The position numbers and the translations under genes are program-made. From sequence record ON528745: a stretch of 64,000 bases of DNA; one strand, 5' to 3'. Within the stretch, counting starts at the first letter, position 1. Every line of letters begins with the position of its first letter. Below the pieces are notes generated by a model. That model saw only the letters and a program-made list of their open reading frames with translations, made no database searches and was not told the origin of the DNA. This stretch comes from Shigella phage ESH35. This document shows positions 721 through 35,978 of this stretch, piece by piece.

Positions 721-1035
721 ATGGAGGTAATGATGTTATACTCAAAGGCTCGTGAAATTTATGAAACTAAAATTAAAGAAGCAGTATTTCAGTTCGCAAC
801 GACAATGCGTTGGACAAATGATTGGGAGTATTCAAAAAATCATAAGAAGCCCTTGGTGACAAGAAAGGCTCATATGTTAGTGTTAATAGACCGTGAGCAG
901 ATTAAAGCCCGAGAAGCCCTCCAGAATCATAAAAAGGCTGCCTTTGAATGGTTTATGGATAACACTGCTCCTGAGACTAAGAAAGCAGTGAGCGCTTGGT
1001 TCAGTGGAAAAAATTGTGAAAGAAGTTTCTTTTAG
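721..1035 (+). CDS. hypothetical early protein
   Basis: 104-aa track ORF with GGAGG just upstream of in-frame ATGs at about 730/733; sits in nrdC-distal plastic region. Confidence 0.4.
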   Translation: MEVMMLYSKAREIYETKIKEAVFQFATTMRWTNDWEYSKNHKKPLVTRKAHMLVLIDREQIKAREALQNHKKAAFEWFMDNTAPETKKAVSAWFSGKNCERSFF

Positions 1036-1037
1036 TT

Positions 1038-1095
1038 GTTTACAAGACTGTTCCTCTGTGGTACTATACAACTATCAACTACGGAGGAACAGAAA
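1038..1095 (+). promoter_or_regulatory. early promoter/leader cassette copy A (PeSL-like)
   Basis: GTTTAC -35, TACTAT -10 after TGTGG, leader ACAACTATCAACTACGGAGGAACAGAAA; 9-bp arms CTGTTCCTC/GAGGAACAG flank the -10; coordinates +/-2. Confidence 0.6.
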
Positions 1096-1623
1096 ATGAA
1101 CGCTAAAGATATTTTCAACTTGGTAAATTACAACGATGGTAAATTTAAATCTGAAGCACAAAGCAAGTTCTTTAATGACATCTCAATCGGAGGTGAAATC
1201 ACTGTTGATGGAGGACAAATTTACAAATCCCGTTGGAATTGGATCGTTATTATCGATGAGATTGGTATTGTAGAAATTTACAAGAATACGAATAAAAATC
1301 GTACATTACACTGGTCTCGTGATACTAACGAACAGTACAAAAAGGATAAAGCATCTAAATTATCTCGTGTAACTCAAGAAGATATTGAGTTCATCAAGAA
1401 AGATATTTTGATGTATGATAACTTAATTGCTGAAGAGCAAGCTGTTATTGATAAATTTGACGAGATTAAAGCTTCTCGTGAAATTCCTGATTTTATGAAA
1501 GAATCAGTAAATGAACGATACACTCTCATTTCAGAGCGTATTGAAACTTACAAAAAGCAAAGAGCTGAACGCCAAAATACTCTTCGGAAGTTTGAAGAAC
1601 GGTTAAAGACGGTACTCGCATAA
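1096..1623 (+). CDS. hypothetical protein with helical/basic C-terminal tail
   Basis: Track ORF 1036..1623 begins inside the promoter cassette; start moved to internal ATG (index 21) preceded by GGAGGAACAGAAA. Confidence 0.55.
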   Translation: MNAKDIFNLVNYNDGKFKSEAQSKFFNDISIGGEITVDGGQIYKSRWNWIVIIDEIGIVEIYKNTNKNRTLHWSRDTNEQYKKDKASKLSRVTQEDIEFIKKDILMYDNLIAEEQAVIDKFDEIKASREIPDFMKESVNERYTLISERIETYKKQRAERQNTLRKFEERLKTVLA

Positions 1624-16490: not shown

Positions 16491-17506
16491 AAATTTTAAA
16501 TTTAGGTGATTGGCATTTAGGCGTTAAAGCCGATGATGAGTGGGTTCAATCCATTCAGTTAGATGGAATTAAACAAGCAATAGAATATTCTAAGAAAAAT
16601 GGAATTACTACCTGGATTCAATATGGTGATATTTTTGATGTGCGAAAAGCAATCACACATAAAACTATGGAGTTCGCTCGTGAAATAGTTCAAATGCTTG
16701 ATGATGCTGGTATTACCCTGCATACTGTTGTAGGAAACCATGATATGCACTTTAAAAATACTTTAACTCCAAATGCCTCTACTGAGCTTTTGGCTAAATA
16801 TCCTAATGTTAAAGTATATGATAAGCCTACTACAGTAGATTTTGACGGATGTTTAATTGATTTAATTCCTTGGATGTGTGAAGAAAATACTGGTGAAATT
16901 CTCGAGCACATAAAAACTTCTTCTGCTTCTTTTTGTGTTGGTCACTGGGAACTGAATGGATTTTATTTTTATAAAGGAATGAAATCTCACGGTCTTGAAC
17001 CTGATTTCCTTAAGACTTATAAAGAGGTGTGGTCTGGTCACTTCCATACTATTTCTGAGGCTGCAAACGTCAGATATATTGGGACACCATGGACACTAAC
17101 TGCAGGTGACGAGAATGACCCTCGTGGGTTCTGGATGTTTGATACAGAAACAGAACGAATGGAATTTATTCCAAACAACACTACCTGGCATCGTAGAATT
17201 CATTATCCATTTAAAGGAAAAATTGACTATAAAGATTTTACAAATCTATCAGTACGTGTTATAGTAACTGAAGTAGACAAAAATCTAACGAAGTTCGAAT
17301 CTGAACTAGAAAAAGTTGTGCATTCGTTACGAGTTGTGTCAAAGATTGATAACTCTGTCGAGTCAGATGACAGTGAAGAAGTTGAAGTTCAATCTCTTCA
17401 GACGTTGATGGAAGAATACATTAATGCAATTCCAGACATCACTGATTCTGACCGCGAAGCACTTATTCAATATGCAAATCAGTTATATGTAGAGGCAACG
17501 CAATGA
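16487..17506 (+). CDS. 47: recombination nuclease subunit gp47 (Mre11-like)
   Basis: 339 aa; phosphoesterase motifs DWHLG, GDIFD, GNHD, GHWE, GHFH. Confidence 0.9.
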   Translation: MKILNLGDWHLGVKADDEWVQSIQLDGIKQAIEYSKKNGITTWIQYGDIFDVRKAITHKTMEFAREIVQMLDDAGITLHTVVGNHDMHFKNTLTPNASTELLAKYPNVKVYDKPTTVDFDGCLIDLIPWMCEENTGEILEHIKTSSASFCVGHWELNGFYFYKGMKSHGLEPDFLKTYKEVWSGHFHTISEAANVRYIGTPWTLTAGDENDPRGFWMFDTETERMEFIPNNTTWHRRIHYPFKGKIDYKDFTNLSVRVIVTEVDKNLTKFESELEKVVHSLRVVSKIDNSVESDDSEEVEVQSLQTLMEEYINAIPDITDSDREALIQYANQLYVEATQ

Positions 17507-17766
17507 CTTTTGATGAATTTAAAAATGTTATGATGAGTCAGCATTTTGAATGCGAAGTAAAAGATGATATTGGTCATAAAGAAATTATTGAATATTGGTT
17601 TGAACCGTTAGAGGTTGAAGATAATTGTATTAAAAAGGTTACAGTCTGCACTGACTGGGCTGTATCTTTTAACTTCAACATTTTAGATAATGACACACCT
17701 AAATCATTACAAGATATGGCTGTATCTTGTATTAAGGATGCATACTGTGAAGTTTTCGACATTTGA
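17503..17766 (+). CDS. hypothetical protein (46.2 position)
   Basis: 87-aa ORF overlapping gene 47 stop. Confidence 0.45.
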   Translation: MTFDEFKNVMMSQHFECEVKDDIGHKEIIEYWFEPLEVEDNCIKKVTVCTDWAVSFNFNILDNDTPKSLQDMAVSCIKDAYCEVFDI

Positions 17767-17953
17767 CATTAATGATGAATTCATAGCAAACATTGATTAT
17801 ACCGAAGAAGATTCTAGATATGTTGGAATAATTTATATCACATCAAAAACAGCACAAGGCGTTGTTTGCATGGCTGAATTTGATGAATACTTTTTAGATT
17901 ATGATGATATGATAGAATGGTCTAAAAGATACATTAAAAGGAATCTTTTGTGA
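17738..17953 (+). CDS. hypothetical protein (46.1 position)
   Basis: Track ORF 17690..17953 trimmed to internal ATG to reduce overlap; start uncertain. Confidence 0.4.
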   Translation: MHTVKFSTFDINDEFIANIDYTEEDSRYVGIIYITSKTAQGVVCMAEFDEYFLDYDDMIEWSKRYIKRNLL

Positions 17954-20381: not shown

Positions 20382-20389
20382 TATTTATA
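20382..20389 (-). promoter_or_regulatory. late promoter (TATAAATA) for the HNH endonuclease gene
   Basis: + strand TATTTATA, i.e. TATAAATA on - strand, about 34 nt upstream of the HNH ATG. Confidence 0.55.
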
Positions 20390-34160: not shown

Positions 34161-35189
34161 ATGTCATTAATACCTTGGATTGATAATGAGTTTGCATACC
34201 GTGCATTGGCTCATTTACCTAAATTCGCACAAGTAAATAATAGTTCAACTTTTAAATTACGGTTTAGATGTCCCGTTTGTGGAGATTCAAAAACCGATCA
34301 AAATAAAGCCCGTGGATGGTATTATGGCGATAATAATGAAGGAAATATTCATTGTTATAACTGTAACTATCATGCACCAATTGGAATATATTTAAAGGAG
34401 TTTGAACCTGATTTATATCGTGAGTATATCTTTGAAATAAGAAAAGAAAAAGGTAAAAGTCGTCCAGTAGAAAAACCTAAAGAACTTCCTAAACAACCTG
34501 AGAAAAAAATAATTAAATCTCTTCCGTCATGTATTAGATTAGATAAACTGGCGGAAGACCATCCAATTATAAAATATGTAAAAGCTCGTTGTATTCCAAA
34601 GGATAAATGGAAATATCTTTGGTTTACAACCGAATGGCCTAAATTAGTTAATAGTATAGCGCCAGGAACATATAAAAAGGAAATACCTGAGCCTCGTCTT
34701 GTTATTCCAATTTATAATGCTAACGGAAAAGCCGAGTCTTTTCAAGGCCGTGCATTAAAGAAAGATGCTCCTCAAAAATATATCACCATAAAAGCTTATC
34801 CTGAAGCAACAAAAATCTATGGCGTTGAACGAGTTAAAGATGGTGATGTATATGTTCTAGAAGGACCTATAGATTCACTTTTTATTGAAAATGGTATAGC
34901 TATTACGGGTGGTCAATTAGACCTAGAAGTTGTTCCATTTAAAGATAGACGTGTGTGGGTTTTAGATAATGAACCTCGTCATCCTGACACTATTAAACGA
35001 ATGACTAAATTAGTTGATGCAGGAGAAAGGGTTATGTTTTGGGACAAATCTCCCTGGAAATCAAAAGATGTTAATGATATGATTAGAAAGGAAGGTGCAA
35101 CCCCTGAACAAATTATGGAATATATGAAAAATAATATTGCTCAGGGGTTGATGGCTAAAATGCGGTTATCTAAATATGCTAAGATTTAA
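34161..35189 (+). CDS. 61: DNA primase gp61
   Basis: 342 aa; zinc ribbon CPVCGDS...CYNCNYH, TOPRIM core; recognised T4 gp61. Confidence 0.95.
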   Translation: MSLIPWIDNEFAYRALAHLPKFAQVNNSSTFKLRFRCPVCGDSKTDQNKARGWYYGDNNEGNIHCYNCNYHAPIGIYLKEFEPDLYREYIFEIRKEKGKSRPVEKPKELPKQPEKKIIKSLPSCIRLDKLAEDHPIIKYVKARCIPKDKWKYLWFTTEWPKLVNSIAPGTYKKEIPEPRLVIPIYNANGKAESFQGRALKKDAPQKYITIKAYPEATKIYGVERVKDGDVYVLEGPIDSLFIENGIAITGGQLDLEVVPFKDRRVWVLDNEPRHPDTIKRMTKLVDAGERVMFWDKSPWKSKDVNDMIRKEGATPEQIMEYMKNNIAQGLMAKMRLSKYAKI

Positions 35190-35386
35190 ATTAACCCAAC
35201 TAAAGCGAATGCTAAATCTACAAATGTATCAAGAGTAACTACTGGAATATTAATACCATGTGCAATTGCAACAGGTGATAGAATAAAGTTCCAGAGTAAA
35301 ATTCCTACCATAGCAGAAATAGTAAAAGCTATACGTTTTTTATTACCTTTTATGGCATTAACAAGTGCCATTAATTTTTGTACCAT
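35186..35386 (-). CDS. antisense small membrane protein
   Basis: 66-aa ORF on opposite strand with GGAGGA 5 nt upstream of ATG; two hydrophobic segments; stop overlaps gene 61 stop. Confidence 0.4.
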   Translation of the reverse strand: MVQKLMALVNAIKGNKKRIAFTISAMVGILLWNFILSPVAIAHGINIPVVTLDTFVDLAFALVGLI

Positions 35387-35459
35387 ATGTCCTCCTTATT
35401 GCTTTATATATTTATTGTATAATTAATCTACTAACCCATGAATTGAAAGGAAAAATAAC

Positions 35460-35978
35460 ATGCCACATTTCAACGAATGTAGTCAACTGATCGAAGGCGC
35501 TGATAAAGCTCAAAATGAATATTGGGATATTCTCGGTGATGAAAAAGACCCGCTGCAGGTAATGCTTGACATGCAGAAATCTCTGCAGATTCGTTTAGCT
35601 AAAGATAAACCTGAATATAATCGTCATCCTGATGATTTGGCTACTGCCGGTGAAGTTGTTGATTGGCTACGTAATCAGAAAGATTATATTGACGATGAAT
35701 TCCGTGAACTTCTGACATCTCTTGGCGGTATGAGCAATGGCGAAAAAGATGCATCTGCTGTATGGAAGCCTTGGAAAGCTCAACATGGTGAACGCCGTGA
35801 AACTCTGATTACTGATTTGTCTCCACAAGACCAATTGGAAATTAAATTTGAAATGATTGATATTCTCCATTTCGTTCTGAACATGTTCCAAGGTCTTGGT
35901 CTTACAGCTGAAGAAATCTTTAAACTTTATTACCTGAAAAATGCTGAAAATTTCGCACGTCAAGACCGAGGTTATTAA
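35460..35978 (+). CDS. 56: dCTP pyrophosphatase gp56
   Basis: 172 aa; MPHFNEC..IEGADKAQNEYWDILGDEKDPLQVMLDMQ recognised as T4 gp56. Confidence 0.9.
   Translation: MPHFNECSQLIEGADKAQNEYWDILGDEKDPLQVMLDMQKSLQIRLAKDKPEYNRHPDDLATAGEVVDWLRNQKDYIDDEFRELLTSLGGMSNGEKDASAVWKPWKAQHGERRETLITDLSPQDQLEIKFEMIDILHFVLNMFQGLGLTAEEIFKLYYLKNAENFARQDRGY

What the first reader, a model, noticed from the sequence alone, without database searches (positions are those of the whole stretch)
35186..35460. Antisense membrane ORF in the 61-56 gap, where I expected dam
The roughly 270-bp gap between primase gene 61 and dCTPase gene 56 holds only a 66-aa - strand ORF with a strong GGAGGA and two hydrophobic segments. It has no room for the roughly 259-aa DNA adenine methyltransferase I recall T4 encoding between 56 and 61. 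Either dam is elsewhere or absent, which would change the restriction-evasion profile. The antisense membrane peptide is itself unexplained.
Basis: inference. Interest (0 to 1): 0.4.

Follow-up and report, generated by a model that had tools for sequence, protein, structure and literature searches.

The report
Conserved late membrane gene; dam absent
The small reverse-strand ORF between the primase and dCTPase genes is a real, widely conserved but uncharacterised membrane-protein gene of T4-type phages, which T4 also carries unannotated, and the "missing" dam methylase is an optional cassette that this phage, like about two thirds of its close relatives, lacks.

Summary
A 66-codon minus-strand ORF (35186..35386) with an AAGGAGGA ribosome site and two hydrophobic segments fills the 270-bp gap between gene 61 and gene 56.

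**The ORF**
- It is a genuine gene, not chance. It is RB32ORF030w / RB69ORF029w, family PHROG 2024.
- It lies in the same place, convergent with the primase gene, in at least six Tevenvirinae genera.
- Its frame is the only one open in all 11 lineages compared, and it shows purifying selection.
- Every lineage has the late-promoter core ATAAATA about 20 nt upstream. This motif is four-fold depleted in the window.
- I read it as a gp55-dependent late gene for a small inner-membrane protein. Its function is unknown.

**dam**
- The ORF does not replace dam. T4 has both: an intact copy lies at T4 17738..17938, unannotated in the reference record.
- dam is an 899-bp accessory cassette inserted between this gene's promoter and the gene 56 middle promoter.
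- About 36% of Tequatrovirus records carry it.
- The window has no Dam, and neither does the whole genome of RB32, which has the same junction.

Both features are ordinary and already present in public annotations. The modest point of interest is a conserved late membrane gene missing from the T4 reference.

The parts
34161..35189 (+). Gene 61, DNA primase (342 aa)
   Evidence: ORF list. PHROG 47 'DNA primase', E 9e-107. 96% identical at DNA level to RB32/RB51 gene 61.
35186..35386 (-). 66-aa ORF: small membrane protein, PHROG 2024 (= RB32ORF030w, 'similar to RB69ORF029w'); predicted late gene
   Evidence: PHROG 2024, E 1.4e-31, full length. RB32 annotation. 692 phage records. Exact protein seen on 259 contigs. 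Only frame open in 11 lineages, with the lowest pN/pS. AlphaFold2 model, pLDDT 82: helices 2-12, 16-42 and 52-63.
35390..35397 (-). Shine-Dalgarno AAGGAGGA, 3 nt upstream of the ATG
   Evidence: Read from the sequence. (A)GGAGG is conserved in all lineages compared.
35409..35416 (-). AATAAATA: T4-type late-promoter core (consensus TATAAATA), 22 nt upstream of the ATG
   Evidence: ATAAATA occurs 9 times in the window against 39 +/- 5.8 expected. Other copies precede gene 49, a mob-like HNH gene, soc and holin t; 49 and t use the same AATAAATA variant. ATAAATA sits 11-23 nt upstream of the ATG in all 11 lineages although the flanks differ. Position -13 is poorly conserved in T4-like phages (PMC1524935).
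35352..35381 (+). Terminator-like hairpin plus T-run, about 165 nt after the gene 61 stop and inside the 5' end of the ORF on the other strand
   Evidence: Consensus scan. Not found in Mosigvirus or Gaprivervirus homologues, so it is probably specific to Tequatrovirus.
35399..35423 (+). MotA-type middle-promoter-like site for gene 56: TTGCTTTA, 11 nt, TATAAT. The late-promoter core on the other strand lies in its spacer
   Evidence: Read from the sequence. Corresponds to T4 P(M)16.53 (mot box plus -10) annotated upstream of gene 56/69 in X01416, and to the oriA primer promoter noted in NC_000866. Inference by similarity.
35398..35417 (.). Junction that T4 fills with an 899-bp dam cassette (T4 16826..17724)
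   Evidence: blastn of window 35101..35520 against the T4 locus: 96% identity up to 35397, resuming at 35418 on the far side of dam.
35460..35978 (+). Gene 56, dCTPase/dUTPase (172 aa)
   Evidence: ORF list. PHROG 173, E 1.5e-46. RB32 annotation.
35098..35150 (.). Strong hairpin inside the 3' end of gene 61, about 40 nt downstream of the ORF stop. It could end the late transcript or stabilise the 61 mRNA
   Evidence: RNA fold of the minus strand 35200..35060: -31.4 kcal/mol, z = -4.4, 0 of 200 shuffles as stable. Any role is inferred.

Best explanation
The 270-bp gap is the ancestral gene 61-gene 56 junction of T-even-type phages. It contains one small transcription unit on the opposite strand.

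**The unit.** A gp55-type late-promoter core (AATAAATA) is followed by a strong ribosome site and 66 codons. Together they make a small inner-membrane protein of family PHROG 2024.

**The protein.** It has a basic amphipathic N-terminus, placed in the cytoplasm by the positive-inside rule. One long transmembrane helix (about 16-42) follows, then a short loop, then a second hydrophobic helix (about 48-66) that packs back against the first. The invariant residues (W32, N33, P38, G44, P48, D/E53, G64) cluster around the periplasm-facing turn.

**How it probably works (inferred).** The protein is made only late in infection. It acts at the inner membrane by self-association or by binding another envelope protein, and so modulates a late envelope process. 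Lysis timing, or protection from outside attack, is my best guess, at no more than about 0.3.

**dam.** dam is not 'missing' from this unit. It is an accessory cassette that about a third of Tequatroviruses (T4, T2) carry. It sits between this gene's promoter and the MotA-dependent middle promoter of gene 56. This phage lacks the cassette and so should not add phage-specified GATC methylation.

**Shown:** gene reality, conservation, synteny, the motifs, absence of dam. **Inferred:** late timing, topology, function.
For: **Coding**
- The frame is open in all 11 lineages; every other frame has stops.
- pN/pS is lowest in this frame: 0.16 (dhabil/Biddle), 0.11 (CIP9/PEi20), 0.37 (window/G2469). 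dN/dS is about 0.14 within Tequatrovirus.
- Length differences between homologues are whole codons.

**Family**
- PHROG 2024, E 1.4e-31; divergent members also hit it.
- A profile search finds 115 clusters, all proteins of 41-74 aa from T4-like phages.

**Synteny**
- Convergent with primase in Tequatro-, Mosig-, Gapriver-, Dhaka-, Jiaoda- and Kanagawavirus.

**Late promoter**
- ATAAATA occurs 9 times against 39 expected in the window. The other copies precede genes 49, mob, soc and t.
- The motif is kept 11-23 nt upstream of the ATG in every lineage despite diverged flanks. It is a perfect TATAAATA in Biddle_MM4 and CIP9.
- Variability at -13 is documented (PMC1524935).

**Membrane protein**
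- Hydropathy and charge distribution. AlphaFold2 model, pLDDT 82.

**dam cassette**
- T4 has dam and the ORF side by side, and so does T2.
- The identical protein occurs in 8 dam- and 2 dam+ contexts.
- The breakpoints are mapped.
- RB32 has no Dam in its whole genome.
- Dam at 90% identity or more is in 182 records, against the ORF in 502.
Against: - I found no transcript, ribosome-profiling or proteomic evidence for this gene in any phage (literature searches).
- The promoter lacks the consensus T at -13 in this phage and in T4 (A and G). Its strength is unknown.
- The AlphaFold2 model rests on 15 sequences. It cannot decide between a two-span hairpin and one span plus an interfacial helix.
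- Nothing links the protein to lysis. As reviewed (PMC6832632), the rapid-lysis mutant classes are assigned to rI, rII, rIII, rIV (= sp) and rV, not to this locus.
- Only 64 kb of this phage was visible. Absence of dam from the rest of its genome is inferred from RB32 and from the single-locus pattern of T4-type Dam.
Confidence: 0.8

Rival explanations
1. The ORF is a holin, pinholin or antiholin-type lysis regulator: a small two-segment membrane protein made late that sets or tunes the time of lysis alongside holin T.
For: Small, with two hydrophobic segments and predicted late expression. It uses the same AATAAATA promoter variant as gene t in this window. One UniRef entry for a 63-aa variant is labelled 'Holin'.
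Against: - No match to any Pfam holin family even at E 10, and PHROG 2024 is 'unknown function'.
- It has no charged C-terminal tail; the protein ends ...ALVGLI and all basic residues are N-terminal.
- It is not next to an endolysin, spanin, t, rI or rIII gene.
- The single 'Holin' label is an isolated automatic name among hundreds of 'hypothetical protein' entries.
- The r-mutant classes reviewed are assigned to other genes (PMC6832632).
Confidence: 0.12
2. The ORF is a toxin-like hydrophobic peptide kept silent early by antisense RNA, in the manner of type I toxin-antitoxin pairs. Early read-through from gene 61 is complementary to the whole ORF and would gate its expression to late times.
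For: - The plus-strand transcript from gene 61 must cross the whole ORF before reaching the terminator-like hairpin at 35352..35381.
- The peptide is small and hydrophobic.
- The convergent, overlapping arrangement with gene 61 is conserved in most lineages.
Against: - Any convergent gene pair gives such overlap.
- No dedicated antisense promoter stands out above chance: 6 promoter-like sites against 4.5 expected.
- The hairpin is absent in Mosig- and Gaprivervirus.
- In DK-13 a homing endonuclease gene separates the ORF from primase, and the ORF is not lost.
- A late promoter already explains the timing.
Confidence: 0.06
3. The ORF is not translated. The conserved sequence is a non-coding element, such as the 3' UTR and terminator of gene 61 or part of the oriA/gene 56 promoter region.
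For: A terminator-like hairpin and a middle-promoter-like site lie in or beside the ORF. In T4, oriA is mapped just downstream, at the start of gene 56. The T4 reference record does not annotate the ORF.
Against: - Synonymous sites are saturated between genera, yet the protein stays alignable and the frame stays open in 11 lineages. The other five frames carry 1-9 stops.
- The hairpin is not conserved outside Tequatrovirus.
- The SD and ATG are conserved in every lineage.
Confidence: 0.03
4. dam has moved: the phage encodes Dam or another adenine methyltransferase outside the 64-kb window.
For: About 100 kb of the genome was not visible. Other T4-like genera carry Dam homologues of 45-61% identity at other map positions.
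Against: - RB32, which has the same junction (95.8% DNA identity), has no Dam by tblastn (best E 1.0). It also has no annotated methyltransferase and no credible DPPY-type ORF in 165,890 bp.
- In Tequatrovirus records numbered from rIIA, T4-type Dam sits at about 16-17 kb, which is this locus.
- The closest relatives of the window are of the dam- type.
Confidence: 0.04

Closest known systems
RB32ORF030w / RB69ORF029w (PHROG 2024), conserved hypothetical small protein of T4-like phages
   Same: 97% identical to RB32ORF030w. The window protein is itself an exact database sequence seen on 259 contigs. Same locus, orientation and length. Full-length PHROG 2024 match.
   Different: Nothing material. 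The window gene is simply a member. The family has no assigned function and no Pfam or NCBIfam model.
T4 dam (Dam family N6-adenine methyltransferase, PF02086) at the 61-56 locus
   Same: Same chromosomal interval. The T4 and T2 arrangements share the flanking genes 61 and 56 and the small ORF.
   Different: The window lacks the 899-bp cassette entirely. Twenty bp stand in its place. No Dam-like sequence or motif occurs elsewhere in the window.
Class II holins / pinholins (e.g. phage 21 S68); comparison from general knowledge
   Same: Similar size, two hydrophobic segments, likely N-in topology, and late expression.
   Different: No sequence relationship. No basic C-terminal tail. Not in a lysis cassette. 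T-even phages already use the unrelated holin T, which is present in this window with ATG at about 59245 on the minus strand.
Small T4 envelope proteins Imm, Sp, RI, Ac (superinfection exclusion, lysis inhibition, acridine sensitivity)
   Same: Small phage-encoded proteins acting at the inner membrane or periplasm. sp lies only about 2 kb away in the same cluster.
   Different: Those genes are on the early strand and belong to early or middle transcription units (strand; timing from general knowledge). This one is on the opposite strand behind a late-promoter core. No sequence similarity was detected by any search.
Type I toxin-antitoxin peptides (hok/sok-like)
   Same: Short hydrophobic peptide whose mRNA is fully complementary to another transcript.
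   Different: The complementary RNA would be the tail of an mRNA, not a dedicated sRNA. No toxicity data exist. A late promoter already explains the timing.

Membership tests
PHROG 2024 (RB69ORF029w-like small membrane proteins) | Full-length profile match | tested here: met
   E 1.4e-31; residues 2-66 against profile positions 1-65 of 65. The divergent Dhakavirus and Jiaodavirus homologues hit the same PHROG.
PHROG 2024 (RB69ORF029w-like small membrane proteins) | Conserved core W-N-[FLY]-x4-P ... G ... P ... [DE] | tested here: met
   W32, N33, P38, G44, P48 and G64 are invariant in the nine-sequence alignment, which spans Tequatro-, Mosig-, Gapriver-, Dhaka- and Jiaodavirus plus a Klebsiella phage. 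Position 53 is D or E. The Kanagawavirus homologues keep W, N, both P and G44.
PHROG 2024 (RB69ORF029w-like small membrane proteins) | Syntenic position: opposite strand, convergent with primase gene 61, upstream of gene 56 | tested here: met
   Window; RB32; T4; Mosigvirus; Gaprivervirus; Klebsiella phage, Dhakavirus and Jiaodavirus; Kanagawavirus.
T4-type late genes (gp55/gp33/gp45-dependent) | TATAAATA-type element a short distance upstream of the gene | tested here: met
   AATAAATA at 35409..35416 (7 of 8 positions, the same variant as before genes 49 and t in this window). The motif is depleted four-fold in the window and conserved in all lineages.
T4-type late genes (gp55/gp33/gp45-dependent) | Transcript appears late and depends on gp55 and DNA replication | not testable with these tools
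   No expression data were found.
Holins (class II / pinholin type) | Small protein with one or more transmembrane segments | tested here: met
   Hydrophobic stretches at about 19-42 and 45-66. Helices 16-42 and 52-63 in the model.
Holins (class II / pinholin type) | Hydrophilic, charged C-terminal tail | tested here: not met
   The C-terminus is ...FALVGLI. K/R residues are at positions 4, 13, 16, 17 and 18 only.
Holins (class II / pinholin type) | Sequence membership of a described holin family | tested here: not met
   No Pfam or NCBIfam hit at E 10. The PHROG category is 'unknown function'. The only BFVD structural matches are its own family.
Holins (class II / pinholin type) | Located in a lysis cassette beside endolysin or spanin genes | tested here: not met
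   The neighbours are primase and dCTPase. t, e, pseT.2/.3, rI and rIII map elsewhere in RB32.
Dam family N6-adenine methyltransferase (PF02086) | ORF of about 260 aa with a DPPY catalytic motif in the 61-56 interval | tested here: not met
   The gap is 270 bp, and its longest ORF is the 66-aa membrane protein. tblastn with T4 Dam gives a best E of 0.65, away from the gap. No [DNS]PP[YFW] occurs in ORFs of 120 aa or more in the window.
Type I toxin-antitoxin | Dedicated antisense RNA with its own promoter overlapping the toxin mRNA | tested here: inconclusive
   The only evident antisense RNA is gene 61 read-through up to the hairpin at 35352..35381. Promoter-like sites are not enriched: 6 against 4.5 +/- 2.0.
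Type I toxin-antitoxin | Peptide is toxic / depolarises the membrane | not testable with these tools
   Needs expression experiments.

The most novel reading that the evidence does not exclude
PHROG 2024 is an unrecognised late-phase component of T-even envelope biology. It is a micro-protein made from its own gp55 promoter. Its conserved periplasm-facing turn would bind a partner such as the periplasmic domain of holin T or RI, or host cell-wall or lipid machinery. Through that partner it would tune lysis timing, lysis inhibition or resistance to attack from outside. It has gone unnoticed partly because the T4 reference genome never annotated it (T4 17738..17938).
Probability: 0.2. Interest if true: 0.55.

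Novelty: already known. Interest (0 to 1): 0.28.

Why it matters
**For this window.** The feature is ordinary. The ORF is an annotated conserved hypothetical gene, and the lack of dam is the majority state among T4's closest relatives.

**Two practical points**
- The curated T4 reference (NC_000866.4) omits a gene that is conserved, under purifying selection and probably late-expressed in more than 700 T4-like genomes across at least six genera. Gene-by-gene screens built on that annotation never test it.
- dam in T-even phages is a movable accessory cassette with defined insertion boundaries next to two promoters. This is relevant when predicting GATC methylation of therapeutic or engineered T4-like phages.

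If the small protein proved to act in lysis control or envelope protection, it would add a player to one of the oldest model systems in virology.

Tried and rejected
**Searches that gave nothing beyond the family**
- Exhaustive phmmer of the 66-aa protein against 1.84 billion representatives. It found only three real 61-65-aa relatives, a few fragments, and three long repetitive proteins that I discount as compositional matches.
- Word-indexed search with the single sequence: close relatives only. With a nine-sequence profile: 115 clusters, all small T4-like phage proteins without names or domains.
- Pfam, NCBIfam and PADLOC at E 10: nothing.
- PDB by sequence profile: one chance hit at E 1. 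PDB by fold: one hit at E 6.
- BFVD by fold: its own family plus one weaker 63-aa match without a name (E 0.21). This did lead me to Kanagawavirus members.

- The afdb50 fold library was not available.

**Literature**
- Five searches for the ORF names, T4 ribosome profiling, late transcription start sites and unannotated T4 genes found nothing about this gene.
- A T2 RNA-seq table in the Kiwa preprint was not held.

**Ideas rejected**
- The plus-strand terminator-like hairpin explains the conservation: rejected, because it is absent outside Tequatrovirus.
- A minus-strand intrinsic terminator follows the ORF: none by the consensus scan. Only the non-canonical hairpin at 35098..35150 is there.
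- The 'Holin' label: rejected as an isolated automatic name.
Full report
**What is there.**
The window is a Tequatrovirus (T4-like) genome segment. The 1.5 kb around the finding is 96-97% identical to phages such as LF73P1, RB51 and RB32. A 24-kb stretch is about 96% identical to EPIMRB01, RB18 and AR1.

Gene 61 (primase) occupies 34161..35189 and gene 56 (dCTPase) occupies 35460..35978, both on the plus strand. The 270-bp gap holds a 66-codon minus-strand ORF at 35186..35386. It has AAGGAGGA ending 3 nt before its ATG, and its stop overlaps the end of gene 61 by 4 nt.

The product is MVQKLMALVNAIKGNKKRIAFTISAMVGILLWNFILSPVAIAHGINIPVVTLDTFVDLAFALVGLI. It has five basic residues in the first 18 positions and two hydrophobic stretches, about 19-42 and 45-66.

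**Is it more than chance?**
Length alone is not. Antisense ORFs of up to 110 aa occur inside neighbouring genes. Conservation settles the question.
- The ORF is annotated in RB32 as RB32ORF030w, 'similar to RB69ORF029w'. It matches PHROG 2024 (unknown function) over its full length, E 1.4e-31.
- tblastn finds it in 692 phage records: 502 at 90% identity or more and 190 at about 45-57%. A divergent subtype adds up to 122 more records, partly overlapping.
- The exact window protein has been seen on 259 contigs.
- I compared eleven lineages: window, T4, RB32, Mosigvirus G2469, Gaprivervirus DK-13 and TH40, Klebsiella phage Biddle_MM4, Dhakavirus dhabil, Jiaodavirus PSE-D1, and Kanagawavirus CIP9 and PEi20. 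This frame has no stop in any of them, while each of the other five frames has 1-9 stops.
- pN/pS is lowest in this frame at informative distances: 0.11, 0.16 and 0.37. Within Tequatrovirus, dN/dS is about 0.14.
- Length differences between homologues are whole codons.

It is a protein-coding gene.

**Relation to dam.**
NC_000866 has dam (16846..17625) between 56 and 61. But T4 also has the small ORF, intact and 97% identical, at 17738..17938 in the 310-bp space between dam and 61.

It is not annotated in NC_000866.4, KJ477684 or the original X01416 entry. A Pyrodigal/pharokka-annotated T4 record and a T2 record do call it.

Alignment of the window against T4 places the difference precisely. 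Homology runs at 96% up to window 35397 and resumes at 35418. T4 has 899 bp (16826..17724, dam plus about 100 bp upstream) where the window has 20 bp.

The identical 66-aa protein is found in eight dam-less and two dam-containing contexts. The dam-containing ones also carry a 186-aa gene.

All non-Tequatrovirus genera examined have the ORF next to 56, or next to an extra NTP pyrophosphohydrolase, without dam. dam is therefore best read as an insertion in part of the Tequatrovirus lineage. T4-type Dam at 90% identity or more is in 182 records, against 502 with the Tequatrovirus-type ORF.

**Is dam elsewhere?**
- In the window: tblastn with T4 Dam gives nothing better than E 0.65. No ORF of 120 aa or more contains a [DNS]PP[YFW] motif.
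- In RB32, which has the same junction: I read the whole 165,890-bp genome. It has no annotated methyltransferase, the best tblastn E is 1.0, and there are only three incidental motif hits in unrelated frames.
- In records numbered from rIIA, T4-type Dam always lies at about 16-17 kb, which is this locus.

I conclude that dam is absent, at about 0.95. About 100 kb of this particular phage was not visible.

**Expression signals.**
Twenty-two nt upstream of the ATG, on the ORF strand, is AATAAATA (35409..35416). The T4 late-promoter consensus is TATAAATA at -13 to -6, and position -13 is reported as poorly conserved in T4-like phages (PMC1524935).
- The 7-mer ATAAATA is strongly avoided in the window: 9 copies on both strands against 39 +/- 5.8 in shuffles. 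TATAAATA occurs 2 times against 9.8.
- Of the other eight copies, four lie 18-34 nt upstream of the start codons of gene 49, a mob-like HNH gene, soc and holin t. Genes 49 and t use the same AATAAATA variant.
- Every homologue examined has ATAAATA 11-23 nt upstream of its ATG and an (A)GGAGG site, although the surrounding sequence, the -13 base and the spacing differ. It is a perfect TATAAATA in Biddle_MM4 and CIP9.

I take this as good evidence for a gp55-dependent late gene. No transcript data were available to confirm it.

On the plus strand, the same 25 bp carry a MotA-box-like TTGCTTTA, 11 nt, then TATAAT (35399..35423). This corresponds to the T4 middle promoter P(M)16.53 that serves gene 56 and primes oriA. 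The late core lies in its spacer.

A terminator-like hairpin with a T-run (35352..35381, plus strand) follows gene 61 inside the ORF's 5' end. It is not found in Mosig- or Gaprivervirus, so it does not explain the conservation.

No canonical terminator follows the ORF. A strong hairpin (35098..35150, z = -4.4) lies about 40 nt downstream, inside gene 61.

**The protein.**
AlphaFold2 with a 15-sequence alignment gives pLDDT 82. The model has helices at 2-12, 16-42 and 52-63, with a loop at 43-51.

The basic N-terminus suggests an N-in orientation. The second hydrophobic stretch either spans the membrane (48-66) or lies back against the first helix.

Residues invariant in the nine-sequence alignment are W32, N33, P38, G44, P48 and G64, and position 53 is always D or E. 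The cytoplasmic half is variable. The constrained part is therefore the periplasm-proximal turn. That points to an interaction at that face, either self-association through the Asn or acidic residues or binding to a partner. This is inference.

**Homology gives no function.**
There are no Pfam, NCBIfam or PADLOC hits and no PDB relatives by sequence or fold. BFVD returns its own family and one weaker unnamed 63-aa match. An exhaustive phmmer search and a profile search return only proteins of 41-74 aa from enterobacterial T4-like phages.

Names in databases are 'hypothetical protein'. The exceptions are evident transfer errors: 'Holin', 'dCTP pyrophosphatase' and 'DNA packaging ATPase'.

**Mechanism and rivals.**
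My best account is a monocistronic late gene whose product inserts in the inner membrane and acts on a late envelope process.
- A holin or antiholin role is possible, but several holin features fail: no charged C-terminal tail, no family match, no lysis-cassette context. The reviewed rapid-lysis loci are all assigned elsewhere (PMC6832632).
- A type-I-toxin-like gating by antisense read-through from gene 61 is conceivable but unnecessary.
- A purely non-coding explanation is contradicted by the frame and substitution pattern.

**Verdict.**

Both features are already represented in public annotation, so I rate the finding as already known and of low to moderate interest. The one point worth passing on is that the T4 reference lacks a conserved, probably late, membrane-protein gene whose function nobody appears to have tested.

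Noticed in passing
L021 1841..2401 (-), L022 1837..2397 (-), L008 (T2) 942..1487 (+); not present in the window: In T2-type phages the dam cassette carries a second gene of 181-186 aa (PHROG 8706, unknown function) immediately upstream of dam. It has weak, sub-threshold Pfam similarity to the GATC-specific restriction endonuclease DpnII (PF04556, E 0.0045, 16.8 bits against a cut-off of 23) and to RE_BanI. For phage Shinka, the features listed under the Dam match include a 'putative restriction endonuclease'. This may be a Dam plus GATC-endonuclease module in a virulent phage.
   Followed up: partly
T4 NC_000866.4 17738..17938 (+) = L002 4239..4439: The curated T4 reference, KJ477684 and X01416 do not annotate the conserved 66-aa ORF. 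An automatically annotated T4 record (OZ209057) does, as PHROG 2024.
   Followed up: yes
window 35098..35150: A long, stable hairpin (stem CAACCCCUGAGCAA / UUGUUCAGGGGUUG) lies inside the 3' coding end of gene 61. On the minus-strand RNA z = -4.4, and 0 of 200 shuffles fold as well. It is conserved in T4 and RB32. It could end the late transcript of the small ORF or stabilise the gene 61 mRNA.
   Followed up: partly
whole window: The late-promoter core is strongly avoided genome-wide: TATAAATA 2 against 9.8 expected, ATAAATA 9 against 39 expected. Three further copies have no obvious late gene behind them: 33788 (-), followed directly by a 34-aa ORF antisense to a 61.2-like gene; 56509 (+), directly before a 109-aa ORF; and 59127 (+), with no ORF.
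   Followed up: partly
L025 2529..2729 (MN850621 dhabil_90); P0105 (Klebsiella phage SAKp28); P0149 (Salmonella phage SEA1); UniRef A0A482MZV5: Homologues of the small ORF carry wrong transferred names in public records: 'dCTP pyrophosphatase', 'DNA packaging ATPase' and 'Holin'.
   Followed up: yes
L005 2872..3621 (DK-13); L028 2677.. (PEi20 mobE); window about 20382 (-): Homing-endonuclease genes are inserted at varying points around the primase locus in different phages. In DK-13 one lies between the small ORF and primase; in PEi20 a mobE lies upstream of primase. In the window, a 237-aa HNH gene follows a perfect TATAAATA at 20382.
   Followed up: no
L023 2529..2813 (Enterobacter phage vB_Ecl_id4496): This T4-like phage (primase 63% identical) has no minus-strand small ORF after primase. 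It has a 94-aa plus-strand gene there instead, so the family is not universal at this locus.
   Followed up: partly
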